Below, piece by piece: positions 18,707 through 64,000 of a DNA stretch of 64,000 nucleotides; position 1 is the first letter of the stretch; the number at the start of each line of letters is the position of its first letter. The DNA is from the human T2T-CHM13v2.0 reference genome, Homo sapiens. The notes below the pieces were generated by a model, which saw only the letters and a list, made by a program, of their open reading frames with translations, did not search any database and had not been told where the DNA came from. Made by a program: the position numbers and the translations under genes. The DNA lies in assembly GCF_009914755.1 (NCBI RefSeq), contig NC_060938.1, one strand, 5' to 3'.

Positions 18707-19444
<738 letters not shown>

Positions 19445-24206: not shown

Positions 24207-24220
24207 GCGCCGCCTGGTGG
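24207..24220 (-). promoter_or_regulatory. RSS-adjacent CTCF motif of IGHVII-1-1
   Basis: Minus strand CCACCAGGCGGCGC, ~21 bp past the nonamer, the typical position of VH-associated CTCF sites. Confidence 0.7.
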
Positions 24221-24241
24221 TCTTGTGCTTCCCTGCAGGGA

Positions 24242-35193: not shown

Positions 35194-41352
<6,159 letters not shown>

Positions 41353-42002
41353 ATAGATTCTTGATATTAGACCTTTGTCACATGCTGATGTGGTTTGGCT
41401 CTGTGTCATTAAACAAATCTCATCTCAAATAGTAATCCTTATGTGTCAAGGGGTGGACCTGGTGGGAGGTGACTGGGTCATGGGGGTGGTTTCCCCCATG
41501 CTGTCCTCATGTTCTCCTGATAGTGAGTGAGTTCTCATGAGATCTGATGGTTTTATCCATGTATGGTGGTTCCTCCTTCATTCCCTCTCTCTCTCTTTCT
41601 CTCTCTCACCTGCTGCCATGTGTCACATGCCTGCTTCCACTTCCACCATGATTGCAAGTTTCCTGAGCCTCCGACCCTAACCACACAGCACTGTGAGTCA
41701 ATTAAACCTCTTTTCTTTACAAATTAACCACTTTCGGGCAGTTCTTTATAGCACTGTGGAAACAGACTAATATAGTAAATTGGTACCAGGAGTGGGGAAC
41801 TGCTATAAAGATAACTCAAAATCTGGAAGCAACTTTGGAACTGGGTACCTCCTGGCAGCGGTTGGAACAGTTTGGAGAACTTGAAAGGAGAAGGGAAGAT
41901 GTGGGAAAGTTTGGAACTTCCTAGAGACTTATTGAGTGGTTTTGACTAAAATGCTGATAGTGACATGAACAGTGAAGTCCAAGCTGAGCTGGTCTTAGGT
42001 AG

Positions 42003-42982
<980 letters not shown>

Positions 42983-45650: not shown

Positions 45651-46135
45651 TGTGATGGTTGATACTGAGTGTCAACTTGATTGGATTGAAGCATGCAAAG
45701 TATTGATCCTGGGTGTGTCTGTGAGGGTGTTGCCAAAGGAGATTAACATTTGAGCCAGTAAACTGGGAAAGGCAGACCCACCCTTAATCTAGGTGGGCAC
45801 CATCTAATCAGCTGCCAGTGTGGCCAGGATATAAAGCAGGCAGAAAAACGTGAAAAGACTAGACTGGCTTAGCCTCCCAGCCTACATCTTTCTCCTGTGC
45901 TGGATGCTTCCTGCCGTCGAACATCAGACTTCAAATTCTTCAGCTTTGGGACTCGGACTGGCTTCCTTGCTCCTCAGCTTGCAGATGGCCTACTGTGGGA
46001 CCTTGTGATTGTGAGTTTAATACTCCTCAATAAACTCTAATATATATATATATTATATATAATATATAATACGTATTATATATTGTATATATACATATTA
46101 GGTTTCTCTAGAGGGACAGAACTATATATATATAT
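45651..46135 (+). mobile_element. MLT2 LTR (HERV-L 3' LTR) with (TA)n
   Basis: TGTGATGGTTGATACTGAGTGTCAACTTGATTGGATTGAAG start, directly after the GGGGTGGACT end of the HERV-L internal region. Confidence 0.85.
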
Positions 46136-48829
46136 AGTTTCCATAGTCTGTGGTGTAGACTAGGTGAAATGGAGTTTACAGCCTCCTGAAGGGTAACACC
46201 CAGACTCTCACCTGAATTCCCTGAAATCCTGTGCCCTGGGGATTGGAGAAACCTTAAAACCAAAGCCACTGTTAAGTTAGCTCAGTCTTTGATTGAGCAT
46301 GGCCATCTGCCTATACTTGGCTTCCAGGGCTGGGTGAAGGAGAATTCCTGCCTGGAACAAGGTCACATTACAAAGAATCTTCACAGTGCTCATGAGACAT
46401 CTCAGACCTTCCATCAGAAGCATTCAGGATGGCAGGAGACTGGACATGATGAGCAATATGGGGATAGGAGGAAGGAAACAGAGAACGGAAGGAGGTGACA
46501 GCTGACAAGGCCTTGTGTTCTCAGATGCTGAGCATGAAATGAAGCATTTATGATGAGGGAAACAGAACAGATGTACGGTACAATATTAAATATAAAGCAG
46601 TAAATTACAGCAGGTGGCTTCACAGCAGCTTAGACATAGCAGAAGAGAAGAGGATGGAATTGGAAGATCGATGCTCAGGACGGATGCAGAGTGAAGCCGA
46701 GGATCCGACAAAGAGGATTTGGGAGATGCAGGCTTTGGGAGAGAAGGAGGGGGATTGGAAGAAGAAAGAATGTTTGAAAGTACTCCATAGAGAACCAGGA
46801 CAGCCCCTGGGGCCAAGCAGCCCATGACCCTTGCAGCTTCAGAGGTCCAGACTCCAGCCTGGCCTCACATGCTGGTTGGTCTTATCCCTGCCAGGCCAGA
46901 ACCCTCTTCAGAACCCACTTCAGAACCCAGAGCCCCCACAGCTCTCCCTCACCCTATGCCCGGGACATGTCTCCCGTGCACTCTTCCCTGGCCCACAGGT
47001 GGGAGTTTACACCTGCTTGGGTGGCCTCGGCATCCACACCAACAACCTGTTAGCAGTTGTCCTGCTCCCTCCACCTGGCACAGCGTGAATCTCCCACAGT
47101 GCAGGCCCCGTGTTTGGGAGTGATTAGGACACACAGGAGGGCAGGTCAGGACAACAGGTGCTGAGGCAGGCAGATTTCGAGGATTTAAGTGCCGATGCTC
47201 TTGGAAGACCATTTCCATGGGGTTAATGGTGGTTTTTCTTGGTGAACTGTTGGCTTGTGTTTTTGATATTGCTGTTGCTCTAAATAGTGTTTTCCTGGCT
47301 TCAATACAAACTCTATTGGTCATGTTCTTTGTTAAAATACGTATCATTCTAAAAGTTCACATGGCATTAGATTTTTTGCTCAAACTACCTATAATATTTC
47401 TCCAACAGAGTGCACATTTGCCTTCCTTTCACACATACCTCCGCCCCCTGCCCTGAGCAGAGTCCCAGTGGTTCCCATCTGTTTAGGGGGTGGGGCAGGG
47501 GACACAGGCCCTGACGCGAGGTGGGGCCGTGCCAAGCGTGGTGGTCTTGCACGGGCACTGAGTGGGTGGGCCCTGGAGAGAGGAGAGGTCATTCCCCCTG
47601 GGGAACGCCCCAGGCCACAGGGGAGAGGTCAGCTGGAGCGTGAGGTGGGGGGCGGAGATGCATAAAGGGTGGGATGGGGCCTGCTGCTCTATCAGCAAAA
47701 CCCCTCACACCCGAAGGACACATAGAGGGAGGGCACTGTATTCACTGACCTCACACTTAACTGTCCATTAGCGTTCACCCACAAAATAATAGAACACACT
47801 GACAGAGGCACAGGAATGGATTGCTCGCATCTTTATGACAGCTGAATGGAGGAAATTTCTAACAGGTTCAGAGAAAGGATATCAAGCTGTGTTTGGAGAA
47901 AGGGGTGGGAATTCTAAACAATATCTATGGAAGCAGGACATCTAGAACCACGGATGTATTCAGAAAAATGCTAGATCTCAGTACTACCCTAGAATACCAA
48001 CAGTTTTCTGTGGATGGTATGGGAAGGGTGATTTCTTCCGTCGGTGGGCTTTGCCTTTGAAATTCTCTCTGACATATCTACACTGCATTTTAAAAGTCAA
48101 TATTAGTGTGAATTTTAAGTTAAAATAAAATGTTATCTCATTCAGTTATTTATACATTTAACTTCCATTTTCCTTTACAATAACTCAGTGATACACCTAG
48201 CCCTGTTTTCCACCCGGACCAGCCTGTGCTGCTACAAGCCTGGTTTCTCTTCCTCATCACGACTTACTCAGCTTCCCTTCCTGTTTCAGTTCAAGGAAAT
48301 GTGGGGGCAGGAAGAAAGGGGGCAGCTGCCACTCACAGAGCTCACACTAAATGACAGACAGCTTGCCCCTCACGTCTACCTATTTTTCTAGTTGAATTTC
48401 ATTGCATGCAGCAATCGACCTCAGGGATTCATTTTCCCACATACGGGAAGCTCGGCCCCAGGTAGGGGGATTTGCTTGGTGGGGGATTTGAACCCAAGTC
48501 CCTCTCACTGAAAAGCCCACAGCACCCCCGTGAGGAACAGACAGGGAACAGGGAGTAGCCCTGGATCACCCTAAACTGACTTCGGGTTTAGAGAAGGACA
48601 GATTACCTGGGGAATGAGGAAGCTCATTGCTCTGGAGCTCTCTTCTGGAGAAATGTCATGAATGTTCCCTGTAAGGAGCTGGTGGCAACTTCCGTTAATT
48701 CTGGGACCAGAGACCTCAGGTCAAGAGCCAGATGCTCATTCATGTCTCTCCAGGCAAGAGGTTCTGGCCAAGTTTGGGCTCCCAGAGGAGTCTAAGAAAA
48801 TGTGGAAGGCACCAATGTGTTTTTGAAGA

Positions 48830-51236
48830 TTTATTTCAGAGTGAGCATCAGCGACCTACAAGAACCTGGGACAGAAGCCAATGCCTCCCGTTTCCCTGTG
48901 ATGTGAAACAGGACCCTGTGCTTCCTGTGGACTTCAAGAAATGTGGACTTGAGCTTTGCCATCCCTTCCCCTGATCCTGTTTCATAGATTTTGCTGTTAT
49001 ATTCTCTGTATCTTTACAGGGATCGGGAGGCTGAATTAGTGTTATTCAGGGTTAGTAACTGTCCCTTCCTTAACGGTGGTGGTCCTGATAGTTCGCACAT
49101 TTTTGGCTGTCCCAAAGAGCAGTGCAATTATGAAGGCGTAAATACGACCAAAGACCACTCTCAGATACATCACTGATTGCTGGCTTTGTTTGACGGAACG
49201 TGTTCTTTTTGGAGGTGGCCCGCTGTTGACACTCCCACCAGCACCTCTTCTTAGGCACAGTGGAGGATCCCAGCCTATATGGCAATGGCAGTTCCTTCTG
49301 TTGTTGCAGACTCCTCTATGACCGCACTTCTGAGGGTGGCAGTTGTAGCCCAGTGAAGTGATAGTCACATTGCACTGGGTGTTATTACAGAAGTTTCCAT
49401 GAACACAAGGAGTGCCATCTATCACACGCCCAACATCAGTCGTGTCTGTTGCATGGTGTTCATCCAGTCCAAAACACTGAAACCCTCCTCTCACTGAGTG
49501 ATGGAATGAAACACGTTCCTGCAGCCGGGGAAGATGGGTCACATTGGTACACTGCAGTCTTCCACAAAACTTATCTATTCCTGCACAAGCCTGGTAGCTG
49601 AGATATGTTTGTTGTCTAATACAATGTCCAAATCGGTAGCTTTCAAGATTTATGTCATAGCAGACCTCGGGAGCATCCTCAGCACTGACACCAAAGATCG
49701 CCTTGCAGAGCACATTGCGATCAGTGCAGTTCCCACGATAGCAGTAGCCTTCTTCAGTGCACGGGGTTCCATCTTGCGTATAAACGTTTGCGGGACATGT
49801 CACGGTGGTCCCGTGACAGTACTCTGGAAGGTCACATATATTTTGGATAGGTCTGCAGAGAGTCCCTGGTGGGGAGAAGCTGCAGTTTGTACAGCACTCT
49901 CCTATATGGCAGATGCTCCCCGGTGTTAAGTGACAGTCACTTTGGCAGCAATAACTGGCATAACACTGCTTGAAGGAGCCACAGTCACATTCCTCCCTCC
50001 CCTCCACTATGAGGTTTCCACAGCGAACCGTTGTCATGGTTTCGTTATACACAGGAGCAAGTGTTTCAAAAACACACTGGCCTGAATGTATAAAACAATT
50101 TTGTGCATGTCCATAAGAACAGTTACTGAACGCATCTGTCATCCCAGGAAATCGCTGCATAATGCAGGAGGCCCTTCTCTGACATGTGCAGTAGTTATCA
50201 TCATACTCCAGACCAATACTTCTCATCTGTGTCTGGGTTATTATGACGGCTACCAATAAATAATGTCTGCCTGGAGTACCAATGTGTAACAGGGCTATAC
50301 GGGAACAGAAGTTATACCTTTCAGGTTCATAGTTAGATTCATGTGGCACGTATTTAATAAGTAGTGTGGATGAATGAACATGAAAAGTATCAAAAAAAGT
50401 TGTTTTAAAATAGGTAAACATTGCACTCTGAATTCGATATTCATTCACAGGGGCTGGGTCACGATTATTATATATGGTCAAAAGATAAATATAGTACCGC
50501 AGATCAATATTTTGAGCAATGCTGTCAATGAGACTGAACATCTGGACCACCTCTTTGGAACAAGTTGTAATATTGCCATATATGCGATAATATGAATTGG
50601 AACATTGAACGTGGCCTTTTATATTGCCTCTATGAGAACTATACAGCGAATTAGATATCCTGGGATTCATGCTGTCATTTGCTTCAGAGAACAGGGGGTC
50701 TGTCTCATTGTCATCATCTCTAAATGTGGGCCCTGTTGCGTTGGGCTCGGCCACTATCTGAAAAACAACATGTTCAAACCTGCGGGAATCCTGGAGGGGT
50801 TTGATTTCGTACGCAAGGTCGTCCAGCCTCATGATGCCTCTGAGGTCCCCATAGCACGTGTCGACGGTGACCATGGACAGAGGCACCTCCTCCAGGTAGC
50901 CGAGGTACTAGCAGTCTGGAGGGATGTAGGGGTCACCCATCTGCAAGACTCCTTGGTCATCCTGAGTTGTCACCAGCAGATGTCTAGGCCAAAGAAGGTG
51001 TTTCCTCCGCATGTGAATGACGTGTCTTTGACCCCAAAACACAGGCTGTAGGACAGCCAGCCGGGAAACTGAAGGCCTTTGCTATGGTGTGTCTCCTTCC
51101 TGGGAATCACCACCTCGGAGGAGGCGTAGTGCCACAAGGGACGGCCTTGAGAACACCGGACCGGAGCCAGGAGCGCCCAGAGCCCCAGCAGCAAGAGGGG
51201 GGTCCTAAGGGTGACCCGCGCCTCTGCCCGCCTCAT
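48830..51236 (-). pseudogene. ADAM6: ADAM6 pseudogene with an intronless coding region
   Basis: Signal peptide from ATG 51236; 1-bp frameshift in the G-run near 51032-51035; TAG at 50910-50908; then a 614-codon frame with disintegrin (CGNLIVEGREECDCG, CDLPEYC), Cys-rich, EGF-like and TM regions, stop at 49042; AATAAA at 48835-48830. Confidence 0.93.
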
Positions 51237-51839
51237 GTCCCAGCCCAGCGATAGTCATCCAAAGACAATGGGAAAGGAAAGGACTGTCCTGGGCGAAGCC
51301 AGGCCCCAACCAGCTGCGGTGGCTGCGTCCCTCCCAGGGAGACCCTGACAGAGAACAAAGGGCCTCCCCAGGCTCCCGCACCACACCCCGGGGGGCACCT
51401 GGACTCCGGGAGGGAATGAGGTAACAGTCCCAGGGCGGGGCAGGGGGTGGGCCTGGACAGGACGGCAGCTGCTGCACTGCGGGATGAGGCTGAGGGTCAT
51501 GGCTGTGAGGCCTCATCGGGGAGGGAAAAGGGAGAGGGAAGCAGGGCTGTCTCTTTTACCACCGTCAATCTTTTCCGTTTCTTTCTGAATCTACAAAATG
51601 CAATGATGTGCGTCCAATGCCCTTGCATCACCCGTGTTATTCTCGGTTGCTCTGTGGGTTAATAGTGCTCCTTTCTGTGGCTCACACTGCTTACTCCTTT
51701 GTCATGTGGAGGTAGACACTGCCAATATTTTCCTTGGGGACTGAATGTTTTTCTACTCTTAATAAGTACCCATGTCTTATTCTTTTTGTTGTTGTGTTGT
51801 TTTGTTGTGGCTTTGAAGTTTTGTTTGAAGTTACCAGAT

Positions 51840-52165
51840 TGTGAAAGGAAAATATCTTGGGCCCCGTCAAGCTGGAAACCACTCAGGACAAATCTGCCTC
51901 CCAGTCTATTTAAAGTTGTCCCTCTGCTCACAGAGACAGGTGCATATCCTCATGGCCTCCTTTGCAAACACTTATCAGAAACTCAAAAGAATGCAACCAT
52001 CTGTCTCTCACCTACCTGTGACCTGGAAGCCCTAAGTGGGGAGGACTTGCTTTGAGTTGTCTCAGCCTTTCTGGATGGAACTAATGTCCTTCTTACTTAT
52101 ATTGACTGATGTCTCATGTGTCCCTGAAATGCGTAAATCAAGATGTGCCCGACCACCTTGAATCC
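51840..52165 (+). mobile_element. MER4-group LTR fragment
   Basis: TGTGAAAGGAAAATATCTTGGGCCCC...AGAAACTCAAAAGAATGCAACCAT...GACCTGGAAGCCC. Confidence 0.65.
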
Positions 52166-52874
52166 AGAGTTCCTGGATTCACAAGATCAACAGTTGATAT
52201 AGGGTAACTTTTTCTTCTGTGCTATGTAAAACTCTTGTGAATTATGATACTTTTTACTTAGTCCATCTATTGGGAACAGATGCTATTCCTGACCCCATCA
52301 GAGCCCCAGGTGCTGTCCCTCCGATGCTTCTGTGTGGTTCTCTCCTGGTCTTTGGTCATTTCTTCAGATGCAGGAGCTGATCAGCTCTCAGGGAAGGGCA
52401 CAGGGGGCCCTCTGTGGGTGTCTCATGTCTGAGAACTAACGTTTCACATATTTCTGCCAATTCTGTCATTGCTTATGAGGGGAGGGAAAATCCAAGGCCA
52501 GATCATAATCAGAAACACAAATTACTGTTTCTTCAAAAGTGTAAATATTTCCCTTTCCTGGCGAATGTGGTCACTCCATTTAAACTTAACGTGACCGTGG
52601 TGTGTTTCGAAGGCTGCGCTGTGTGGCACTTTGTCTTCCAACGCCCCGTACTCCCATCTTCCATCGCTTCAAATCCTGCCTTTTTACCACAGATGAACGA
52701 TTACTAATGAAGCTGGTTTCCCCTCTACGAGTGTGCAGGTTGAACGCCCTTTCCCTACCCCTTTAAGGCTTTCACAGGGAACAGAAGGAAAATATTTGAC
52801 ATCCCTGAAGGAGGCTGCTAGGGAAGACTGTGTTCCTCCTAAATTCTTGTGCTGAAGTCCCAACCCTTGGTCCT

Positions 52875-53965
52875 GTCCCCACATGGCCCCTTCCCTGAGA
52901 TGAGCTCATCTGTCCTCTTCCCCAAGGTGAGCACACCTGTCCCCACGTGGACCTTTCCCTGAGACAAGCACACCTGTCCCCACATGGACCCTTCCCTCAG
53001 AGGAGCATAACTGTCCCCATGTGGACCCTTCCTTCAGATGAACTCACCTGTCCCCACGTGGACCCTTCCCTCCAGAGGAGCACACCTGTCCCCACGTGGA
53101 CCCTTCCCTCAGAGGAGCACACCGGTCCCCAAGTGGACCCTTCCTTCAGACGAGCTCACCTGTCCCCACGTGGACCCTTCCCTCAGACGAGGTCACTTGT
53201 CCCCATGTGGACCCTTCCCTCAGATGAGCTCACCTGTCCCCACGTGGACTCTTCCCTCAGATGAGCTCACCTGTTCCCACATGGACCCTTCCCTGAGACA
53301 AGCACACCTGTCCCCATGTGCACCCTTCCCTCAGAGGAGCACACTTCTTCCCTGAGAAGGTGGACTCTTCCCTGAGGCAAGAACACCTGTCCCCAGGTGG
53401 ACCATTCTCTCCGATGTGCACACCTGTCCCCACATGCACCCTTCCCTGAGAGAAGCACACCTGTCCCTATGTGGACCCTTTCTTGATACTAGCACACCTG
53501 TCCCCACATGGACCCTTCCTTGAGACAAGCACACCTGTCCCCACTTCGACGCTTCTCTCAGATGAGCACAACTGTCCCCACCTGGACCCTTCCCTGAGAC
53601 GAGCTCACCTGTCCCTACTTGGATTCTTGCCTTAGACAAGCACCTCTGTCCCCACGTGGACCCTTCCCTGAGAGAAGCACACCTGTCCCCAGGAGGACCC
53701 TTACCTCAGACAAGCATGCCTGTCCCCAGGTCAACCCTTCCCTCAAAAGAGCTCACCTGTCCACATGAGGACCCTTCCTTGAGACAAGCACTTCTGTCCC
53801 CTCAGACAAGCTCACCTGTCCCCATGTGGACCCTTCCCTGAGACAAGCACACCTGTCTCCATGTGGAACCTTCCTTCAGACAAGCACACCTGTCCCCACA
53901 TGGACCCTTCCCTGAGACAAGCACGCCTGTCCCCATGTAGACCCTTCCTTCAGAGGAGCTCTCCT
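52875..53965. repeat. 37-bp minisatellite, ~29 degenerate copies
   Basis: Consensus CACCTGTCCCCAYRTGGACCCTTCCCTSAGAYRAGCW; for example starts at 52934 and 52971. Confidence 0.95.
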
Positions 53966-53967
53966 GT

Positions 53968-54290
53968 GCTCAGACACCACCAGGGGGGCTCAGACACTAA
54001 TAGGGTGGCTCAGACACTAACTGGGGGCTCAGACACCATCAGGGGTCCTCAGACACTAATAGGGTGGCTCAGACACTAAGAAGGGGACTCAGACACCACC
54101 AGGGGGCTCAGACACTAGCAGGGGCACTCGGACACCACCAGGGAGGATCAGACATAAGGCGGGGGGGCTCAGAAACCACCAGAGGGGCTCAGACACCACC
54201 AGAGGGCGCCCAGCAACCAAGGGATGCTCAGAACCTACGGAGGGGCACTCAGGACCTACAGGGGTCGCTCAGGACCTGGCTCAGGAGCAG
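53968..54290 (+). promoter_or_regulatory. Tandem ~20-bp repeat array of CTCF-like motifs
   Basis: About 15 units of CTCAGACACCACCAGGGGG; strong cores CCACCAGGGGGC (54096-54107) and CCACCAGAGGGCGC (54196-54209). Confidence 0.7.
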
Positions 54291-54927
54291 ATGCAAAGTG
54301 AAGCTGAGGTTTCCGTTTTCTCTTTGGGGATTCCTTGTCCTGCCCTGCAAAAGCCTTGCTCAGCAGCTATTATTGTTTCTTCCCTGGAATTCCCTAGTTC
54401 CTCTCATCTGAAAAGGACATAGAGCAGAAATCCCATTTAACTTTTCACACTTCATTTTCAGTCTCCTTCTAGCGATATTTCAGTAAAATATTAATAAGAA
54501 ATAATGAAGCCACAGTCCAAATGTTAGCATCATGCAAAGATTTGTGTGTCTTCTCCACTCTGTCAGTTATGCCTTAGGAAACTCTTCTCTCAATCCACTG
54601 CTCAGTGTACACTATGATGTTGTGTTTTGTTCTTTGCTTTCATCTGCTTTGCAGGGAAATGAAGCACCATTTATTGGGACGTGTCCTCCATTTCTGATGG
54701 ACTCCCCGTGGTCTCCACCTCAGACGGTTTTGCCACCATCTTTAATCCGTTAATGCCTTCAATCGACCTCACCATCCATGTAATGAAGCAATGAATGCCT
54801 TTACCTCATCTACTTGTGTCTCCATGAGTCAGTTCACTTCTCTCCATTCTCACAAAGGACAGCCAACCTCAGGCCACTGCTTCAGAGCCTCCTGCAGCCT
54901 TGGGTGGTCAACCTATTAAAAAGCCCC

Positions 54928-57019
54928 TGCTGTTTAGAAAGGATGTGTATTGGAAACTTAATCCCAAATTCCATAGTGTCCAGAGGTGGGAATGTTAAGA
55001 AATGATTAGGTCATGAGGGCTCTGCCCTCATGAAGCAATGAATGCCATTATCGTCAGAGTAGGTTACTCATTGTGGTAGCAGATTAGTTACTACAGGCCT
55101 GGGTTCCTCATTAAAAAATGAGTTTAAACCCCTTTCCATCCTTCGCACCTGCTCTCCTGCCTTCCACATGGACATCACAGCAAGAAGGCTCTTGCCAGAT
55201 GCTAACACCTTGATATTGACTTCCCAGCCTCTAGAGCTGCGAGAAAATAAATTCCTTTTCCTTATACTTTAGCCAGTGTGTGGTATTCACTCATTGCACC
55301 ACAAAGTGGACTAAGACGAAAAATCAGTATCAAGAGGTGGGGCTGTTGCGATAACAAATACCCCAAAATGTAGAAGTGGATGTAGTAATGCACAAAGACT
55401 GGAATAATTTGGAGGATCAGACTATAAAAAGTCTGGATTGCCCTGAATAGAACACTAGAGGTGATTCTTTTGAGGACTCAGAAGAAGAGAGCTGTGAGGA
55501 AATTCTGAAACTTCTTAGAGATTATTTAGGTGATGACCATTAGATGTCAGTAGAAATGTGGACAATAAAGGCCGTTCTGATGAGGTCTCAGGAGAAAAAG
55601 AAGAATAGCTCATCGGAAAATGGAGCAAAGGCCATCCTTGCCATAAAGTGGCAAAGAACGTGGCTGAATTGTGTTCATCCCTAGGTCCTTCTGTAAGGTG
55701 GAAGTTCAGAGCCATGAACGAGGTTATATGGTGGGAGAAATTTGAAGGAAATCTATGGCCTCACTTCTAGCAGGCACTTTAGGACTCTGTTCCCGGTGTC
55801 CAGGCACAGCACTCCTTGGCTGCCCATGCTGTGGCTCAGGAGGACCTAGGTGTGGCTCAAGCCATCACTTTAATGGTACAAGTCATCAACTTCCATGGCA
55901 TCCATGTGTTGTTAATTCTGCAGGTGTGCAGAATACAAGAACCACGAGGGCATGGCTTTCTCCACCTAGATTTCAAAGAATGCTGTGGACGGCCTAAGGT
56001 CTCGGGCAGCCTAAGGACAGCCTAAGGTCTCGGGCAGTGACTTGTTGCAGAGACAGAGTCACCACACTGGGCCCTTAGCACAATGCCAAGCAGAAATGTG
56101 GGTTTGGAGGTACCACAAAGAGTTTCCAGTCAGCCTAGGAGAGCTAGAGGCCTGAGAGTCCCACCTGTGAGAGCGGCTGAGTGGACTGAACCCAGAAAAT
56201 ATATAGAGGCAAGACTGCCGGAGGCCTTGGGGGCCCATCCCCCTCCCCAGTGTGCACAAGATGCCGTTAAAGAGGATGATTTTCCAGCTATAAGACTTAA
56301 TGTTTTTTTCCCTGTTGGGTTTTGAACTAGGCACCGCTTTCTCCTTGCCTCTCTCTGAGCTTTGGAATGGGAATTTCTATCCCATACCTGCCCCATTGTT
56401 CACTGTATTTGAAAGTAGATAACTTGTTTTGACTTTATAGGCTCGCAGATGGAAACAATTTATATCAGGCTAAATTGTGCCTCGAGTCACACTCATATCT
56501 GATTTAGATGAGACTTTGGACTTCAGACTTTTGCACTGATGCTGGATAAGACTTTGGAGACAATTGGGATGGAATGAATGTAATTTGCATTGTGATAAGG
56601 ACATAAATTTTGATATTAGGAATGGAATGCTATGGTTTAAATGTGTCTCCCAAAGTTTAGGATCTGGAAATAATCTTTAATGCAACAGTGTTGAGAGGTG
56701 GGACCTTTATTATGTGATCAAGTCATGAAGGCTCTGTCCTCATGAATGGATTACTGTCACTATCAATGGAGTGGGTTAGTTATTATAGGAGTGAATTTCT
56801 AATAAAAGATGGTCTCCTTTCTCTCGTGGACAAATGGTCTCTTGCTCACCCACCTCTGCTGTGAGATGAGGCAGTGAGAAGTCCCTTGTGAGATGCCAGT
56901 GTCTTGATATTAGACTTCTCTGACTCAAGCACCATAAAGCATAAATTCCTTTTCTTTAGAAATTGCCCAGTCTCTGGTATTCGGTTATAGTAACAAAAAG
57001 ACAGACTGAGACTAAGCCA
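54928..57019 (+). mobile_element. MST-family MaLR provirus: LTR 54928-55318, internal region, LTR 56628-57019
   Basis: Two similar LTRs (GTCATGARGGCTCTGYCCTCATGAA, ending GACTAAG) flank a MaLR internal region. Confidence 0.75.
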
Positions 57020-57099
57020 TTGTAACATGTGTGAGGTGATATCTTATCATGGTTTTAATTTGCATTTCCCTGATGATTAGTGATGTTGAGCATTTGACT

Positions 57100-57500
57100 C
57101 TTTATGTTGAGTGAAATAAGCCAGGTATAAAAAATTACTCCATGATCTTGCTTACACATGCAATCTAAAAATGTTGAACTCAGAGAAGTAGAGAGTAGAA
57201 TGGTGCCTACCAGGGGCTGGCGTCAGGGGCATGTGAAAGCTGAGACGTTGGTGAAAGGGTACAGAGTTTTGGTTAGATAGAAGGAATTCGTTTGAAGATC
57301 TATTGCACAGCATGGTGACTTCCATGATACTAATGTACTATATACTTGAAAACTGATAAGAGAGTAGATTTTACACGTTTACACCATAAAAAATAAGTAT
57401 GTGAGGTGATGGACATGTTTATTTACTTGATTTAATAATTTCACAATGCCCGCATACGTCAAAACATCACGTCATATCCCCATAATATATGAAATAGAAT
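57100..57500 (+). mobile_element. L1MA-like 3' end
   Basis: TATGTTGAGTGAAATAAGCCAGG...GATCTATTGCACAGCATGGTGACT...GTATGTGAGGTGATGG. Confidence 0.75.
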
Positions 57501-57536
57501 ATGTTTTTCTAGTAAGTGTGATGCCTCTGTTTCTTT

Positions 57537-58257
57537 TTCTTTCTTTTTTTTTTTGGGAACAAAACAATAAACACCTTTATTACATGGGTGAAGACAAAAC
57601 AAGGATTTATTTGCCTTTCTGGGCCTTGATTTTCCTAAGATAGAACTCCAACTCTTTGCCCTCTAGCACATAGCCATCTGCTCGGCCACACTGTCCCGGC
57701 CTTGAAGCCATGCACGCAAGAAGCTTGCCCTGCTGGAACTGCTCCCCCAGGAGACTGCTCATTTTGGCATTCTTCTTCCTTTCATCATATTTCTTCTGAA
57801 TTTTTTTAGATCGTTTTTTGTTTAAAATCTCTTCTTCCTCAGGAGTCAGCTTGGCTCCCTTCTTGCGGCCCAGGGGCAGTGCACAGTGGGACTCGTACCA
57901 CTGTCGGTAGGGCGTGCTGTCGATGAGCACGATGCAATTCTTCACCACGGTCTTGGTACGAACCAGCTCGTTATTGGATGCATTGTAGACAACATCGATG
58001 ACCCTTGTTTCACCAGCGCAGCATTCTGAGCCCCAGGAGAAATTCCCCACGTCCAGCCTCGGGGCACAGTATTTCTTGTTACCTCCTCGCACACGGACTG
58101 TGTGGATGCGGCACGGGTCAGTCTTGCTGTTGGCAGCTGGGCGCCCCAACTCATACTTCCGCTTCTTGTGGCAGGGCCATCTCTTGCCCCCAGCTTTGCG
58201 GCCCTTGTGCCAGTTGTCCCGAGAGGTGCCCATCGCTCGGCGCTGGCTGGAAAGAGG
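57537..58257 (-). pseudogene. RPS8P1: Processed pseudogene of ribosomal protein S8 (ORF 58233-57607, 208 aa)
   Basis: [10 protein letters not shown]...[13 protein letters not shown]...[26 protein letters not shown]; intronless; 5' TOP CTCTTTCC; AATAAA and polyA tail; 14-bp TSD GCCTCTGTTTCTTT (57523-36 and 58258-71). Confidence 0.93.
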
Positions 58258-60622
58258 GCCTCTGTTTCTTTAACAATACTTTCTGGAGATTGTTTTTCCC
58301 TTGAGCAATGTTTCCTCTCTGCTGTATTTACACAGTTTTCCTTTCCCATGGGTTGATTTAAGACAGTGACAATTTATTTATTCTATGTCTGGTAATTTCA
58401 CTGAGAAACTTAATGAATAGCCACTTGAAACCATCTGGTGCCACTGAGAAACCATCTGAAGGACACAGATTTTCTGAGTGTAGGCCACAACCATATTTTA
58501 ACACTTTTTAAATTCAAAATCGGGGTTTAAATTTTGATATTTTACTATGGCTTCTTTGATTCCCTCCCAAGATCTAACCATTGAGCGTGTGAAAAGGGCT
58601 GGGACCCAGGTTACGGCTGTGCTTGGCATGATGACGTCCTGCAGAAATTCCTTTGGCTTTCTACATGGAGCTCAGCCTCCGTATCAGCCAGCTCACCAGG
58701 AGGTCAGAGTACTTTTCAAAGATCCTCATTGTGTTGTTTCATTGTGAGAGGTTTCCAGCCCTCGTGAGACACCCCTTGGTTTTACAGTCATCACGAACTT
58801 GTTTACGATTCCGAAAACATACCTGCCATCTGTCCATATGTTTGTTCTGCGGCTTTTGATTTGCTAAAATGCTGTAGTAACTGCAATAAGTTCTACCATC
58901 TGGATTAATTTTCACCTCAGATGGAAGAGTATATTTTAAGATAAAGATAAAATAGTAATAGTATATCCTCCTTGGTAGTATCCAGTTCTATACTTTGAGC
59001 TATGGTCTGTCAATAAATAATGTTATGCCAGGGTCCTCAATGGAGTGCCTGAACATCTAAGGAAGGTACAGAAGTTTCCCTAACTAAGATAGAAACCATG
59101 GTGAGCACAAGTTTGCTATGCATCCATGTCTCCGGTCTGTCTCACTATGCACCTGACACTCATTTTAACCTCACCAGGAAGTCAGTTAACTTCCAAATCA
59201 GTTTATTGTAATGCTTCTAGGTAATTATATGTGGCAATTTCAGGCAGAAATGAATAAAAATCTTCACCAGAGAATCTAATACAGAAGAATGCAAGAGGCC
59301 CTGGGCTTGTTTTCATAAAAGCATCATACACCAGGCAGTTGATTCTTTCAGCTGTCGGCACTGGCTCACCCAGCATGCGGGCTTCATCCCCTAAGTAAGC
59401 TTCATCATGCATGGATAGGCTGGCGCCTTTCCTGAGGCCATATGCCGATGGATATGCAGCACTGTGCCACACGTCCACAGAGATACAAAATCCCTGATGG
59501 GAAGAACGAGGCTGGATCAACGGGACTGGCAGTTTCTCATTGAGGAAATGTGAGGTCAGTTTCTATGGTGGGCAATTCAGGAAATTACTCAGCAGTTTTG
59601 TAATTGATGGTTATGGAAAAATGAACCGTTGAGATGACTAATGACTTACATTCCATTATTCCAAGTAAGAAACGGACATCACAGTTCGCTGTAACTAAAT
59701 TTTCATAACCAAATGGATTACTTTAAATTTCTTCCTACATCTTCTCTTAATAATTTTTAATAACGAATGTGTCTTACCTATATTCCCAATATTTAAAACT
59801 GGGTTGTCAAGAGAGTCTAGAGAATTTGAGAACTAGGAACAGTGAAACTCCTGTATGTTCAGCAGCTCCCAAAGCAACACAATATTCCCCAGGAACACTG
59901 TTCTGTCCTCCAGCATAATTCATGCTTGTGTATTTCCTAATGGCTCCAATAGTGACCCTCCATTCCCACCAAACATTTGGCCTCCCCTCTCTCCACTTCC
60001 CCTCCATTCATACATTACACTCTCAGCTCTGTCTAGGGTGTCATAAAAGCCAGCGGACGGACCCTCCTGATCTCCTGAACATGAAAGCCAGCACTATCAT
60101 GTGATGGGCTCCTCTTGGCATGGTGACCTTCAAAGGCACCTCATTTAAATAATCACCTTTTTTTTCCTTCTGTAACAAAGTGTTTCTTTCCATTGTGCCT
60201 TCCCATAAGCAGTTTAACATAATTTACTGTCCGACCACAGTTATTAATACACACAAATGCCACAACCTCTTTCTAGCCCAAGAGACCTGATTAATTCTTC
60301 TTTGGGGATGAGCACACCCTAGAAACACATCCCATTCACATAAACACGGGCACACCGATGACGTGTTCTTGAGTCTACACCATTCTCCGTCCAACTCCAT
60401 GAGCCCCTGAAGACCAAGACAGGCTCTTTCACACCTGTGCAAGCTCCGGCCCAGGGACGGCCTGCTGAGGAATGGGCTCAGCTGGGTCTGGGTGCTGGGT
60501 TCATCTCTTCCCCTCTCCTGTCCCAAAGCAGGTCCATCACCCTGCTCAGGTCTGAACAGGAGTGTCTAGGTTTTTCTGGCCATCCGACTTTTTCAATGTA
60601 TAGAAGCTCTCCTATTACCTAC

Positions 60623-61005
60623 TGTATTCATTTTATAGGGCTTTTATAACGAAATACCACAGATCGGATGGCTTACAATACAAAACCAATTTCCTCACAC
60701 TTATGGAGGATGAAAGCCTAAGATCAAGCTGCCAGCTGGGTGGGTTTCCTCTGAGGTCTCGCTCCCTGGCATGCAGATGGCGCCTTCTCACTGTTCTGTG
60801 GTAACATGGCCGTCCCTCGGGGCCTGTGCACCCTCCCTCCTGCTTCCTCTTCTTATAACAACAGTCAGATTGCATTAGGGCCCCACTCCAGGAATCTCAC
60901 TTTAACTTATTCACCTCTTTAAAGGACACTAATCCAAGTATGATTTCATTCTGAAGGACCAAGGGTTGGGACTTCAGCACATGAATTTAGGAGGGACACA
61001 GTCTC
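60623..61005 (-). mobile_element. MLT1A/B-like LTR
   Basis: TGTATTCATTTTATAGGGC...AAATACCACAGA...GGCATGCAGATGGCGCCTTCTCACTG...GAATTTAGGAGGGACACA. Confidence 0.75.
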
Positions 61006-61039
61006 CCCTAGCAGCCTCCTTCAGGGATGTCAAATAAAA

Positions 61040-64000
61040 GGAATAAAAGGACACTGATGCTCCAGAAGGCCTTGAGAGTTTGCAGCTGCTTTGTTGTGGT
61101 GGGACGTGGGTAGGCCTGCACCTTATCTATGATGGCAGATGGAATGACTTTAGTTTTACCCAACCAGATGACACCAACTATTTGACTGATAAGCCTGGAC
61201 CCTGGATTTTGTCTGTATTAACCTCCCATCCTCTATTCAGCAAGTGAGACAGCAAGACAGGGGCTGTAATTTATAAGCTGAAAAAAGACTCAGAGGTTAT
61301 CATGATAACACCAATGTAGTGGAAAACATGTATCCCCTTTGGGTCAGCCCATCGACTGAGGTTGGAGGTCACTAGGCTGTGAGATTTGGGCTGTGTAAAT
61401 ATCCCTGGAACAAGACAGTAAAAGTCCATTGTTCTTTTTAGGTTAATGCAAATTGATCTTGACTCTGGGGCAACAGAAATGCTGAAGAAGGTATTGACTA
61501 AACTGATAAGGAAATGCTACGTGGCTAACACCTCTCCTATTCTCGTCAGACTGGAGGAGATATTAGGAACAGCTGCATTCACTCGGGAGACCACCTTATT
61601 TAACTCCCAGTAATCTACTGTCATTCTCCATGTCTCAACTGGCCTCTGCATGGGCCATGCAGGTCTGTTGTAGGAACCATGCAGTGGCCTCCTAATGCCT
61701 ACCTGGGCTAGCTCCTTAACAATCTTCATGATTGGATCATCTTCCCCTCCCAGGGCAGGTGGTGTTGCTCCAGCTGTGGGACTCCCCATGGGTTGGCAGC
61801 TCTACTGGCATCCAGTTTGCCTTCTGCTTGGTCACACACATCACCACTCTAACTCTCCGTTGGAATTCCCTGGCCGTTGTTTGGAGGGTCACGCCTAAGA
61901 AGATATCCATTCTCATGTGTTCTAGGATGGAAGCTGTGTATACTACACAGGGTCTGGGTGGCAGTCCCCCAGGTCGTATCACTAGTTCAACCGGTCTGAC
62001 TTCCGTGGCCCTTCCATAACCACCTATTGCCGCTATGGGCCCAGAGAACTGGTAGGTGTTGCCAGTTAGAGCACATTCGTTGTCTGGCCACCCTGACTGG
62101 CTCCTTGGCTGTCTCTCTTCCTTTGGTGCCATTGTTCTTCATCACAGTAGGGTGCATCCCTTGCTTACTCAGTTTCTTCTTTTCTCCTAAGTCAGCAACT
62201 ACCTGGGGCACATGAAATGTTGGCTGCCCTCCCAGGGGGCTTAACATGGAAATCAGTGCACCATGCCATTGGGTAGGCACTGAATACATAACTGTAGCTT
62301 TTATTTTGCAGTAAACAATTCATTGTTGGGACTTCAATAATTCTCAGCATAATTAGCATGCCTCATCTCGACTCCCAGAAGATATCCTGCAACTCTTCTA
62401 TAGTCTGCCATTGAGAACGAGCTGTGGGGGCATCTTCCTCATTGGACCCGGCCCCCTTGGAGCCTGCAACCACTTACCATAAAGGTGCCATCATAGGGCT
62501 GGATGGTTTGTGATGGGTGTCATTTTACTCATCTTGAGTCCAGAGAGTATAATACTCTCCACCCCCTATCCCATAGAGAAGCCACCCTGTGATCCACTCT
62601 CTCCCCTTGTGTCTGAATCCAATTCTAAGCTCCCCCAATTCCACAGTGGTGGAATTCCGCATTGTGGTGCACTGCCTTCTCTTAGGTGGGGGAAAGTTCT
62701 GTGGGGCTAACTTCTGCTGGCACAGTTGGCCCACTTTTATGTTGGTGGTGACCACCACAAGTACCATTTGGCTACAGACTGTGTCCTGGCATTCCAAGGC
62801 TTTTGTGTCTGGAAGGCATCCTTTAGCCAGCCTGCTAAAGGTTGTTCCGGATGTGGAGTGGCCCTCTTTGTCACATCCTACACTCGTAAGGCATGACATG
62901 TAGTGCAGTTGCTACTCCTAAACAGTATATCTCACTTCAGCTTCCTTCTGTCTTTGAGACCAGGGTCTTAGGGACACACACTTATGTCCTTGCCTTTAAC
63001 ACAGTCCCCACCTAAACCCCTCAGGGTAACTGACTACATCCAATTCACAGGGCTGTCCCTGCACTAGAACTCCCAAGGTTTGTATTCATTTCACTGTGAC
63101 TTCAGCTTCTTCAGAGCCCTCATCCTCCCTTTTGGAACAGTCGCAGTGGGGCACCTTCTTGTCTAAGTGCCATGGGGGCCCAAGGGGTTTGCCGAAATGG
63201 GGAATAAAGGATCGCCAATGTCCCAGGAGGCCTTGGGAGGTTTCCAACTGCTTTGGTGTGGTGGGACATGAGTAGACCTGCATCTTATCTTATCTATGAT
63301 GAAATATGGAATAACTATAGTCTTATGTAACCAGATGACACCAAGTATTTGACTGATAAGCCTGGACCCTGGACTTTGTCCGCATTGACCTCCCATCCTC
63401 TGTTCACCAAGTGAGACAGCAAAGCAGGGGCTGCAGAGCAAGAACCTTTATGGACTCATCCTAACCTTCATCTCCTTCCCACTGGAGCTCTACATCGGAC
63501 GCCAGGACTTAGGCTCCCAGGATGACGTAGTCATAGTAGTCCTAATGCATTGGTGTGGCAGTCAGCAACACTTTAAATGGCCTACCAAATAAACAATAGT
63601 CTCCAATTTGCTATCCTATCCCTACAGGCGGCATCTCATTATAGTTACAACTGTTCTCGTGGCTGACACACCCTAGCCTGTGCAATGAGCTCTGCCTCAG
63701 TGGTTGCTCAGAGTGCAGTCAGGAGTGGCCAACAGCTGCCACAGCTCAGGAATCTGACTGTCACTTTGTCACATTGTCACATCCACCTCAGGCAACAGGT
63801 CCTCCAGAACTTTTGGCATTTTGGAGGCATCCCCGTACACATGCAGCGGGCCCCATCCATCAAGGATTGCAGCTGTTGGGCCCACAGAGATGTGCATGGC
63901 CTGCCTGGGATTTCCTCACAGGTCTCCCCTTCCTTGACGCTGTTGTCTAAGAGCTTGCAGGATTTTCTTTGACCTTGTTCTGGGCCTACCAGTTGTCATG
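61040..64000 (-). mobile_element. Ancient class III (ERVL/HERV16-like) internal fragments: gag, protease, RT
   Basis: RT-like ELAQVGIRRPLHGSYNRPAWPMQRPVETWRMTVDYWELNKV; PTTPKQLETSQGLLGHWRSFIPHF; gag-like GREWITGWLL. Confidence 0.75.

What the first reader, a model, noticed from the sequence alone, without database searches (positions are those of the whole stretch)
52793..61036. Candidate composite V-D boundary: E-box VNTR fused to an inverted CTCF array inside an inverted-repeat-bounded block
Seen: three structures co-localise. An 82-bp inverted-repeat arm is followed immediately by 1.1 kb of E-box-rich 37-mers, then immediately by ~15 CTCF-like 20-mers on the + strand; the partner arm is 8 kb away. 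Established: mouse Igh V(D)J choice is shaped by CTCF-site orientation (IGCR1, VH-associated CBEs) and by PAIR elements that bind CTCF, E2A and Pax5. Inference: this could be a repeat-built human boundary or loop anchor facing the distal VH cluster. It would leave IGHV6-1 alone on the D-proximal side, which may bear on its preferential use in early/fetal repertoires. Copy-number variation could tune its strength.
Basis: partly seen in the sequence, partly recalled or inferred. Interest (0 to 1): 0.8.

Follow-up and report, generated by a model that had tools for sequence, protein, structure and literature searches.

The report
Inverted CTCF-motif minisatellite, rearrangement scar
This stretch of the human antibody heavy-chain locus is a rearranged, back-to-front copy of a repeat module found throughout the V-gene region; it keeps two or three good CTCF motifs facing the distal V genes, and its inverted repeat is a leftover of an old duplication.

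Summary
The described structure is real. The arms are 82 nt long and match at 79 of 82 positions (52793-52874 / 60955-61036). A 37-mer array of about 29 units (52875-53967) runs straight into a 20-mer array of about 15 units (53968-54277).

The 20-mer array belongs to an IGH-specific family of CTCF-motif minisatellites. Five other IGH arrays carry 95 of 95 motif hits on the V-gene (-) strand. This array is the only one on the + strand.

Only 3 of its roughly 15 units meet the published hVH-CTCF criterion. Those three match entries hCTCF.7-.9 in Ciccone et al. 2019, so the sites are already catalogued, by computation only.

The E-box richness comes from amplifying one unit. CpG is depleted (observed/expected 0.17).

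The inverted repeat is not a functional border. Chromosome 15 orphon copies preserve both arms of an old inverted duplication of about 7 kb. Human IGH keeps the right arm plus an 82-bp stub of the left, joined to the 37-mers at a CCT microhomology.

The array is convergent with a 2-kb array 24 kb distal, and the two bracket IGHV1-2. CTCF or E2A occupancy and any boundary role could not be tested here.

The parts
52793..52874 (.). Left arm: the 82-bp stub of the lost left copy of an old inverted duplication. Its last ~46-48 nt are the start of an ancient dispersed repeat that is cut off at 52874.
   Evidence: 79 of 82 match the partner; on chr15 (T1 copies) this arm continues directly into the inverted block; dispersed-repeat homology starts about 35 nt into the arm and runs on about 310 nt past its inner end in the right-arm context only.
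52875..53967 (+). 37-mer minisatellite of about 29 units, each carrying CACCTG and a CACGTG-type box. It is the expanded version of the 3-5 unit mini-arrays found in 3 of 5 other IGH modules. Its native upstream flank is missing here.
   Evidence: the native upstream flank is present in chr15 T2 (5611-5833) and has no hit in the window.
53968..54277 (+). 20-mer minisatellite of about 15 units. It is an inverted, decayed member of the IGH-specific CTCF-motif array family.
53976..53989 (+). hVH-CTCF match with 2 mismatches. The string equals hCTCF.7 of Ciccone 2019 Table S2. It scores weakly on the recalled matrix (5.9 bits).
54095..54108 (+). hVH-CTCF match with 1 mismatch. The string equals hCTCF.8. 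Recalled matrix score 14.8 bits.
54195..54208 (+). hVH-CTCF match with 1 mismatch. The string equals hCTCF.9. Best CTCF-matrix score in the window (19.9 bits). It carries a CpG at the 3' end of the motif.
54272..54875 (+). Conserved downstream flank of the module, homologous to the sequence following the 2-kb array next to IGHVIII-2-1.
   Evidence: nhmmer E 1.9e-36; the same hit occurs in T1 and T2.
54278..60954 (+). Body of the surviving right arm ('X'). The genome holds four copies: this one and three on chr15.
57555..58256 (-). RPS8P1 retro-pseudogene insertion. It is present here and in chr15 T2, and absent, with a clean empty site, from chr15 T1.
   Evidence: Hub annotation; (T1 joins 58258 to 57535 with a 12-nt overlap).
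58028..60278 (+). Patch where the window is closer to the T1 (left-arm type) copy than to T2. I read it as left-to-right gene conversion. It contains the RefSeq 'enhancer' 58918-60117.
   Evidence: bins: IGH-T1 4.1-5.2%, IGH-T2 7.4-10.2%. (4.5% against 6.9%).
60955..61036 (.). Right arm: the outer end of the surviving arm, continuous with the dispersed repeat inside the block and with flank B outside.

Best explanation
The region is a rearranged, inverted copy of a module that recurs across the human IGH V region. The module runs: a short 37-mer array, then a roughly 1-kb spacer holding an IGHV(III)-type pseudogene, then a 20-mer array whose unit carries the VH-type CTCF motif, then a conserved flank of about 600 bp.

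This copy differs from the others in three ways. It lies on the opposite strand. It has lost the spacer. Its 37-mers have expanded.

It is part of the right arm of an old inverted duplication of about 7 kb. The left arm was deleted in the lineage of this haplotype. The deletion left an 82-bp stub joined to a 37-mer unit at a CCT microhomology. The 'inverted repeat' is that scar.

How it most likely works (inferred, not shown): the two or three well-preserved motifs at 54095, 54195 and perhaps 54252 bind CTCF. They would form a modest cohesin barrier with an IGCR1-CBE1-like orientation, convergent with the distal VH arrays. The nearest such array is the 2-kb array 24 kb away, so the pair brackets IGHV1-2.

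My odds: structure and origin about 0.75; CTCF occupancy in some B-lineage cells about 0.45; a measurable effect on V usage about 0.1-0.15.
For: Family membership:
- Tandem units with the same motif occur at 4 other chr14 IGH places in the pattern search (9 genome hits; 6 on chr14, of which only this one is on the + strand; 3 elsewhere with an unrelated unit).
- TRF shows arrays of 11 to 106 copies in 5 of 5 fetched IGH loci. In 3 of those 5, 37-mer mini-arrays lie about 1-1.2 kb upstream.
- Spacer homology ends at the array start in 3 of the 4 other loci and about 49 nt short of it in the fourth (L020).
- The downstream flank is homologous with 54272-54875.

Orientation: 95 of 95 hVH-CTCF hits in those five loci are on the - strand, and 3 of 3 here are on the + strand.

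Origin:
- chr15 T1 copies read A, arm, then the block inverted, with no RPS8P1 and no 37-mers. chr15 T2 reads native flank, 42 x 37-mer, 20-mers, block with RPS8P1, arm, B.
- Substitution divergence: A against T1 4.2%; B against T2 3.5%; inner block against T2 4.1% but against T1 8.9%; outer block against T1 4.5% but against T2 6.9%. Two paralogous arms therefore already existed when the chr15 copies were made.
- The block has only 4 genomic copies, so the left arm is absent from chr14 today.
- The dispersed repeat is truncated exactly at 52874.

Motif quality. The convergent partner array has 56 matrix hits, all on the - strand, at window-equivalent 78468-80533.
Against: - There is no occupancy, methylation or contact data of any kind.
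- 12 of about 15 units fail the published motif criterion.
- CpG observed/expected is 0.17 in both arrays. That fits germline methylation, and the best site has a CpG in the motif.
- The matrix scores rest on a count matrix recalled from memory.
- The grouping of arm copies rests on a single site.
- The centre of the supposed palindrome cannot be reconstructed. T1 has the spacer homologue inverted 296 nt from its array, and the flanks U and W have no chr14 counterpart.
- Only one human haplotype and no other primate could be examined.
- Tandem repeats were not lead usage variants in Rodriguez 2023 (passages).
Confidence: 0.6

Rival explanations
1. Neutral relic. The arrays are decaying minisatellites whose motifs are incidental. 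They are methylated and unoccupied in B-lineage cells and have no architectural effect. Their only real consequence is structural instability, since they sit at rearrangement breakpoints.
For: - CpG observed/expected is 0.17. CACGTG survives in only 6 units, while 12 show the TG/CA transition forms CACATG or CATGTG.
- Only 3 of about 15 units pass the motif criterion.
- The chr15 paralogues keep just 1 hit each.
- The deletion junction lies in a 37-mer unit. T1 homology ends at the 20-mer array and T2 homology starts at the 37-mers.
- Tandem repeats were not lead guQTLs (PMC10362067, passages).
- A 174-kb synthetic human IGH with simplified intergenic DNA still recombines in mice (PMC13261652, passages).
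Against: - The best site is the top CTCF-matrix score of the whole 64-kb window (19.9 bits by the recalled matrix). Such motifs are often occupied (general knowledge).
- The family is strikingly IGH-specific and orientation-uniform, which suggests the arrays as a class are not neutral.
Confidence: 0.35
2. This is a dedicated, repeat-built V-D-type boundary, analogous to IGCR1 or PAIR elements. It binds CTCF and E2A, isolates IGHV6-1 from the distal VH genes, explains the early or fetal use of IGHV6-1, and is tuned by copy number. The inverted repeat bounds the functional block.
For: - The orientation is opposite to the VH arrays and the position is D-proximal to them.
- IGHV6-1 is the only functional V gene on the D side (hub annotation).
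- Dense CACCTG sites.
- Copy number differs between paralogues: 29 against 42 37-mer units.
Against: - The inverted repeat is a deletion scar.
- The fusion of the two arrays is loss of a spacer.
- Few intact motifs.
- There is no - strand partner forming a divergent pair at the site. The nearest - hit is 24208, about 30 kb away.
- A tighter divergent motif pair lies nearer to IGHV6-1, at 24205(-) and 25173(+) (recalled matrix).
- Proximity alone is the usual explanation for IGHV6-1 use (recalled).
- No occupancy data.
Confidence: 0.1
3. Origin by a single inversion with breakpoint duplication. The ancestral locus had one block in the T1 orientation. An inversion with staggered breaks duplicated the 82 bp at both ends, and no second arm ever existed.
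For: - T1 shows exactly the pre-inversion left junction (A, arm, inverted block) and lacks RPS8P1, so it looks older.
- Short inverted duplications at inversion breakpoints are a known signature (recalled).
Against: - T2 carries the native upstream flank of the 37-mers instead of A plus the arm.
- T1's inner block is twice as diverged from IGH (8.9%) as T1's flank A (4.2%) or T2's inner block (4.1%), so it is a paralogue, not an orthologue.
- The divergence pattern is mosaic.
- At the one grouping site, the left arm groups with T1 and the right arm with T2.
Confidence: 0.1
4. The arms are terminal inverted repeats of a transposon, or they drive recurrent flip-flop inversion of the 8-kb block.
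For: A perfect-looking pair of 82-nt arms 8 kb apart. One chr15 copy type has the block in the other orientation.
Against: - Only 5 genomic copies exist, and all are explained by segmental paralogy.
- There is no target-site duplication beyond AAA (read by eye).
- The arm is part unique DNA and part truncated old repeat.
- The inverted chr15 block is a paralogue rather than a flipped orthologue.
Confidence: 0.03

Closest known systems
Human VH-domain putative CTCF sites (hVH-CTCF; Ciccone et al. 2019, J Biol Chem, PMC6746451)
   Same: The motif is the same. The three sites in the array have exactly the strings and order of hCTCF.7-.9 in their Table S2, following hCTCF.6, which corresponds to the window site at 24208. 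They are intergenic and 'clustered', as many of their sites are.
   Different: These sites lie in the minority orientation (the paper reports 174 of 183 in one orientation). The passages I read do not say which sites are reversed. The word 'tandem' occurs 0 times in the main text, and the paper does not describe the module or its history. The ChIP passages I read concern mouse pro-B cells; I saw no occupancy data for the human sites.
IGH V(III)-pseudogene / CTCF-array modules elsewhere in the locus (for example next to IGHVIII-2-1, window-equivalent 78.4-81.8 kb)
   Same: The 37-mer unit family, the 20-mer unit family and the downstream flank of about 600 bp are shared, in the same order.
   Different: This copy is on the opposite strand. 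The spacer and pseudogene are missing. There are 29 37-mer units instead of 3-5. There are only about 15 decayed 20-mers with 3 motif hits, against 11-48 hits per locus elsewhere. The native upstream flank is replaced by the 82-bp stub.
Mouse IGCR1 (CBE1/CBE2 insulator between VH and D; PMC10293834, passages)
   Same: The motif orientation is opposite to the VH CBEs and the position is D-proximal to them, so the geometry is CBE1-like and convergent.
   Different: It is not in the V-D interval, because IGHV6-1 lies on its D side. There is no adjacent oppositely oriented partner. It is a minisatellite rather than two single sites. No functional data exist.
Mouse PAIR elements (Pax5-activated intergenic repeats; known to me from recall and from titles and reference lists only)
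   Same: They are a repeated intergenic element of the VH region said to combine CTCF and E-box (E2A) sites.
   Different: PAIRs are distal, associated with VH3609/VH8 genes, and defined by Pax5 binding and antisense transcription. None of that could be tested here, and no mouse sequence was available.
Segmental-duplication and inversion breakpoint scars, and IGH orphon duplications on 15q11
   Same: A low-copy short inverted repeat marks the edge of a larger, partly deleted duplication. The chr15 orphon copies preserve the older states.
   Different: I found no description of this particular palindrome or its deletion, but I ran no literature search aimed at it.

Membership tests
hVH-CTCF sites of the human VH domain (Ciccone 2019) | Match to ACCACCAGGGGGCG with at most 2 mismatches | tested here: met
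   53976 (2 mismatches), 54095 (1) and 54195 (1). The strings equal hCTCF.7-.9. The other roughly 12 units fail.
hVH-CTCF sites of the human VH domain (Ciccone 2019) | Common orientation (174 of 183), the same strand as the V genes | tested here: not met
   All 3 sites are on the + strand. The V genes, the 24208 site, and 95 of 95 hits in five other arrays are on the - strand.
hVH-CTCF sites of the human VH domain (Ciccone 2019) | CTCF occupancy in B-lineage chromatin | not testable with these tools
   No ChIP data were accessible, and no paper was found.
IGH 37-mer / V(III)-pseudogene spacer / 20-mer module (family defined here) | 20-mer array with the GCTCAG...ACCACCAGGGGGC unit | tested here: met
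IGH 37-mer / V(III)-pseudogene spacer / 20-mer module (family defined here) | 37-mer units upstream of the 20-mers, in the same 5'-3' order | tested here: met
   These are present in 3 of 5 other loci. Here the array is expanded to about 29 units.
IGH 37-mer / V(III)-pseudogene spacer / 20-mer module (family defined here) | A spacer of about 1 kb with a V(III)-type pseudogene between the arrays | tested here: not met
   nhmmer finds the spacer in 4 of 4 other loci. In the window it hits only IGHV6-1 and IGHVII-1-1, with nothing between the arrays.
IGH 37-mer / V(III)-pseudogene spacer / 20-mer module (family defined here) | A conserved flank of about 600 bp downstream of the 20-mers | tested here: met
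   54272-54875, E 1.9e-36.
IGCR1-type insulator | Lies between the last VH and the first D | tested here: not met
   Hub annotation: IGHV6-1 (18825-19272) and IGHVII-1-1 lie between it and the D genes.
IGCR1-type insulator | Two closely spaced, divergently oriented CBEs | tested here: not met
   Only + strand hits occur in and around the array. The nearest - strand hVH-CTCF hit is 24208. The matrix scan shows no - hit of 12 bits or more within 15 kb.
IGCR1-type insulator | Blocks RAG scanning and loop extrusion | not testable with these tools
   Needs ChIP, 3C and V(D)J-seq.
PAIR elements | Pax5/E2A/CTCF binding, Pax5-dependent antisense transcripts, distal VH location | not testable with these tools
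   No binding or transcript data and no mouse sequence were available. The location here is proximal, not distal.
Transposon with terminal inverted repeats | Many genomic copies, target-site duplication, arms as element ends | tested here: not met
   5 copies, all segmental paralogues. No target-site duplication. The arm is part unique DNA and part truncated old repeat.

The most novel reading that the evidence does not exclude
The human VH region is punctuated by at least 6 modules that pair E-box 37-mers with multi-copy CTCF-motif arrays. These would be a human counterpart of mouse VH CBEs or PAIR-like elements, built from minisatellites. The copy in this window is the only inverted one.

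If its CBE1-like sites are occupied, they would form a convergent loop with the 2-kb array 24 kb distal. That loop would enclose IGHV1-2 alone. It would also act as a second barrier, upstream of IGCR1, keeping IGHV6-1 and ADAM6 in the D-proximal domain.

The arrangement arose when a primate-lineage palindrome lost its normally oriented arm, which flipped the net polarity of the site.
Probability: 0.12. Interest if true: 0.75.

Novelty: new variant of a known kind. Interest (0 to 1): 0.4.

Why it matters
According to Rodriguez et al. 2023 (passages), the regulatory elements that shape human V(D)J choice have not been characterised in depth. Most knowledge comes from the mouse.

This work adds three things:
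- It shows that many of the catalogued human 'intergenic VH CTCF sites' are minisatellite arrays tied to V(III) pseudogene modules.
- It picks out one orientation-reversed array, lying between IGHV6-1 and IGHV1-2.
- It makes a concrete, testable prediction: a convergent 24-kb loop around IGHV1-2.

It also removes a misleading feature. The inverted repeat is an evolutionary scar, not a design element.

It also shows that chr15 orphon copies can serve as 'fossils' for reconstructing IGH history. Without occupancy data the functional importance stays open.

Tried and rejected
- Transposon or TIR reading: rejected.
- Simple inversion with breakpoint duplication: disfavoured.
- IR-mediated flip of an orthologous block in the chr15 copies: rejected on divergence.
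- chr14 counterparts of the chr15-only flanks U and W: none found, only dispersed repeats. U against W shows only repeat matches.
- 37-mer remnants next to the T1 array: none with 8 or fewer substitutions in 27 nt.
- blastn between module flanks of different IGH loci and T1/T2 found only the arrays. nhmmer was needed to see the flanks.
- The genome-wide listing of the 14-nt motif was truncated before chr14 and was not used (340 hits against 67 in the control). It was replaced by a tandem pattern.
- The exact 20-mer dimer pattern found only this array and T2, because the other arrays use a slightly different unit.
- Literature searches for occupancy or for a description of this element found nothing relevant. 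These were IGHV6-1+CTCF (0 papers), VH6-1+CTCF, 'human IGH locus'+CTCF, CTCF+tandem repeat+IGHV+intergenic, human pro-B/IGH/CTCF/loop extrusion and minisatellite+immunoglobulin heavy chain+CTCF.
- A search of the Rodriguez 2023 supplements for guessed hg38 coordinates and cCRE ids gave 0 hits in 5 files, and one PDF was unreadable. My hg38 coordinates were estimated from memory, so this blank means little.
- Earlier findings of this scan were not open to the session.

Full report
**1. The observation**

The three structures are present exactly where stated.
- The arms 52793-52874 and 60955-61036 are 82 nt long and 96% complementary (79 of 82), 8080 nt apart. blastn found no further homology of comparable strength in the 400 nt on either side (next best E 0.27).
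- The 37-mer array begins at 52875, the base after the arm, and ends at 53967.
- The 20-mer array follows without a gap, from 53968 to 54277.
- The 1093-bp 37-mer array holds 20 CACCTG and 6 CACGTG. The rest of the window has 0.54 and 0.08 per kb. These are copies of one unit, not independent occurrences.
- CpG observed/expected is 0.17 in both arrays. Twelve units carry CACATG or CATGTG where the consensus has CACGTG. That is the usual decay of methylated CpG, so the CACGTG box is not being preserved.

**2. How CTCF-like the 20-mers are**

- A strict 12-nt core (recalled from memory) occurs twice in the 64-kb window. Both hits are in the array and on the + strand (0.31 expected; 5 of 100 shuffles reach 2).
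- The published human consensus hVH-CTCF, with 2 or fewer mismatches, gives 4 hits in the window (0.46 expected; 0 of 100 shuffles reach 4). They are 24208 (-), 53976 (+), 54095 (+) and 54195 (+).
It scores 19.9 bits at 54193 (the best in the window), 14.8 at 54093 and 12.0 at 54252. Four units score 3.7 to 5.9 because an extra G shifts the register. The remaining units score about zero or below.
- So the array has two or three credible sites, not fifteen.

**3. The sites are already in print**

- Ciccone et al. 2019 (PMC6746451) searched the human IgH locus with that consensus. I read passages of the main text and, in supplement 2, rows and the legend of Table S2 and part of Table S3.
- They list 188 putative sites. 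Of these, 183 are in the VH domain, and 174 of the 183 share one orientation.
- The strings of hCTCF.6.7.8 and .9 match the four window hits, in that order.
- The sites are therefore catalogued, but by computation only. The ChIP passages I read in that paper concern mouse pro-B cells; I saw no occupancy data for the human sites.
- The word 'tandem' does not occur in its main text. Table S2 only boxes 'clustered' sites.

**4. It is a member of a family**

- A pattern requiring two motifs one unit apart finds 9 places in the genome. Six are in IGH on chr14: this array on the + strand, and five hits at four loci, all on the - strand. Three are elsewhere, with an unrelated unit.
- I fetched those four loci plus one found through the 37-mer search. 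All 5 hold 19/20-mer arrays of the same unit family, with 11 to 106 copies.
- In those five loci, 95 of 95 hVH-CTCF hits lie on the - strand, which is the V-gene strand.
- In 3 of 5, a 37-mer mini-array of 3-5 units lies about 1-1.2 kb upstream.
- The intervening spacer is homologous among the loci (nhmmer, 4 of 4; E from 5e-68 to 3e-247). It ends at the array start in three of them and about 49 nt short of it in L020.
- In the locus next to the window, the spacer contains the annotated pseudogene IGHVIII-2-1 (window-equivalent 80636-80937). The 20-mers begin about 80 nt beyond that pseudogene's 3' end.
- The first 600 nt or so after that array are homologous to 54272-54875 in the window.
It has lost the spacer (no hit between the arrays), and its 37-mers have expanded to about 29 units.

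**5. What the inverted repeat is**

The 82-nt arm occurs five times in the genome: the two arms here and three places on chr15.

Two chr15 copies are 99.8% alike and inverted relative to each other. I call them T1.
- They are colinear with window 38203-52874, the ADAM6 side, which I call flank A.
- They then run straight on from the arm into 61036 down to 53969. That is the block in the opposite orientation, including a 20-mer array.
- They lack RPS8P1 and have no 37-mers.

The third chr15 copy, T2, reads as follows.
- A flank homologous to the native upstream flank of 37-mer arrays, then 42 37-mers, then 20-mers.
- Then the block with RPS8P1, the arm, and flank B out to the window end.

Substitution divergence separates orthology from paralogy.

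| Region | IGH against T1 | IGH against T2 |
|---|---|---|
| Flank A (42514-52792) | 4.2% | not applicable |
| Flank B (61037-64000) | not applicable | 3.5% |
| Inner block (54278-57535) | 8.9% | 4.1% |
| Outer block (58258-60954) | 4.5% | 6.9% |

- In the binned three-way comparison, T1 is the outlier from 54.3 to 57.3 kb. T2 is the outlier from about 58.8 to 60.3 kb.
- Flank A and flank B show the same age, so the doubled distance of T1's inner block means it is a paralogue.
- Two inverted copies of '20-mers, block, arm' therefore already existed in the ancestral locus when the chr15 copies were made.
- Today the block has only four copies in the genome, and only one is on chr14.
- So the left copy has been deleted from this haplotype's lineage, leaving 82 bp.
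- The patch at 58.0-60.3 kb that resembles T1 is best read as left-to-right gene conversion before that loss.
- One search supports the deletion. An old dispersed repeat (about 70% identical copies genome-wide) starts about 35 nt inside the arm and continues about 310 nt into the block at the right arm and in the chr15 copies. At the left arm it is cut off exactly at 52874.
- The junction reads arm-end ...TCCT followed by GTCCCC.... The 37-mer unit has ...ACCT before GTCCCC, so the two share a 3-nt microhomology, CCT.
- At the only site in the arm that groups the copies two against two, the left arm groups with T1 and the right arm with T2. This is weak but consistent.
- The arms are therefore not transposon ends, and they do not delimit a functional unit.

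**6. What remains unexplained in the history**

- The centre of the old palindrome cannot be rebuilt.
- In T1, the spacer homologue lies inverted 296 nt from the 20-mers and is interrupted by a repeat.
- No 37-mer remnant is detectable there.
- The chr15-only flanks U and W have no chr14 counterpart.
- I examined one human haplotype and no other primate.

**7. How it may work**

- In the mouse, the VH CBEs are convergent to IGCR1 CBE1. CBE1 has the opposite orientation and lies on their D-proximal side (PMC10293834, abstract and passages).
- The array here has the same relation to the - strand arrays distal to it, so it is convergent with them.
- I scanned 83.5 kb of contiguous sequence with the recalled matrix. 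The next - strand cluster distal to the array is the 2-kb array at window-equivalent 78468-80533, with 56 hits of 12 bits or more, all on the - strand.
- The only hit of 12 bits or more between 55.6 and 78.4 kb is a + strand one at 73654.
- IGHV1-2 (65669-66106) lies between the two arrays. If both are occupied, they would form a 24-kb convergent loop around IGHV1-2.
- Occupancy is inferred from motif quality only. The best site has a CpG in its 3' part, and the arrays look germline-methylated.
- E2A binding to CACCTG is general knowledge (recalled) and is untested here. CACCTG is also not conserved in all paralogous 37-mer arrays, since the L017 and L015 consensus units have CACATG.

**8. Evidence bearing on function from print**

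- Rodriguez et al. 2023 (PMC10362067; passages) found usage-associated SNVs enriched in CTCF-bound elements.
- They report that no tandem repeat or small structural variant was a lead variant.
- They describe a complex, polymorphic tandem repeat between IGHV1-2 and IGHV1-3, which is probably the 2-kb array.
- They state that human IGH regulatory elements have not been characterised in depth.
- A synthetic 174-kb human IGH with simplified intergenic DNA recombines in mice (PMC13261652; passages). Such arrays are therefore not essential for recombination as such.
- I found no paper on CTCF occupancy or chromatin contacts at this place.

**9. Verdict**

It is partly wrong: the role of the inverted repeat, the idea of a purposeful fusion, and the number of sites do not hold up.
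- It is an orientation-reversed, spacer-less variant of a known kind, the VH-domain CTCF motif clusters, and its sites are already listed in print.
- My odds are about 0.75 for the structural and evolutionary account. They are about 0.45 for CTCF occupancy in some B-lineage stage and about 0.1-0.15 for a measurable role in V-gene choice.
- Interest is moderate.

Noticed in passing
outside the window: chr14:100270452-100272556 (window-equivalent 78452-80556), locus L017: A 2.1-kb array of about 106 19/20-mer units lies about 80 nt past the 3' end of pseudogene IGHVIII-2-1. It has 48 hVH-CTCF hits, all on the - strand. It is probably the complex polymorphic tandem repeat 'between IGHV1-2 and IGHV1-3' mentioned by Rodriguez 2023.
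   Followed up: partly
window 24205-24223 (-) and 25173-25191 (+): Two strong CTCF-matrix hits (17.2 and 18.1 bits, recalled matrix) lie about 1 kb apart in divergent orientation, at and just upstream of pseudogene IGHVII-1-1 and 5-6 kb upstream of IGHV6-1. The first is hCTCF.6 of Ciccone 2019. This IGCR1-like divergent pair is closer to IGHV6-1 than the array under study.
   Followed up: no
window 18750-18768 (-): A weak CTCF-like match (8.8 bits, recalled matrix) lies about 18 nt beyond where the IGHV6-1 RSS nonamer should end. That is near the fixed 19-nt spacing Ciccone 2019 reports for RSS-associated sites.
   Followed up: no
window 16771-16789 (-): A CTCF-matrix hit of 15.3 bits lies between IGHV6-1 and the D cluster. 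It is a candidate for the human IGCR1 region.
   Followed up: no
chr15 T1 copies (L011 / L006-L007; T1 reverse-complement coordinates 7433-8236): The V(III)-pseudogene spacer homologue lies inverted 296 nt from the 20-mer array and is cut off by a dispersed repeat. No scenario I tried explains this.
   Followed up: partly
chr14:100414891 (L015) and four places on chr16 (32.4-35.4 Mb; L016): Small 4-unit 37-mer arrays share flanks that are conserved between IGH and the chr16 orphon copies. The L015 flank also resembles the last ~100 nt before the 37-mers in chr15 T2.
   Followed up: partly
window 57555-58256 against chr15 copies: RPS8P1 is present in the window and in T2 but absent from T1, where the flanks overlap by 12 nt (a clean empty site). 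The retroposition therefore hit the right arm after the arms had separated.
   Followed up: yes
chr15 T2 (L012-L013, positions 9551-10147 of the 30-kb string): A 600-bp insertion relative to the window at 56298 is 92% identical to window 35207-35804, a repeat-masked stretch.
   Followed up: no
window 38203-52874 against chr15 17.95 and 19.61 Mb: The whole ADAM6 pseudogene region is duplicated twice on chr15 at about 96% identity. The two chr15 copies form an inverted pair that is 99.8% alike.
   Followed up: partly
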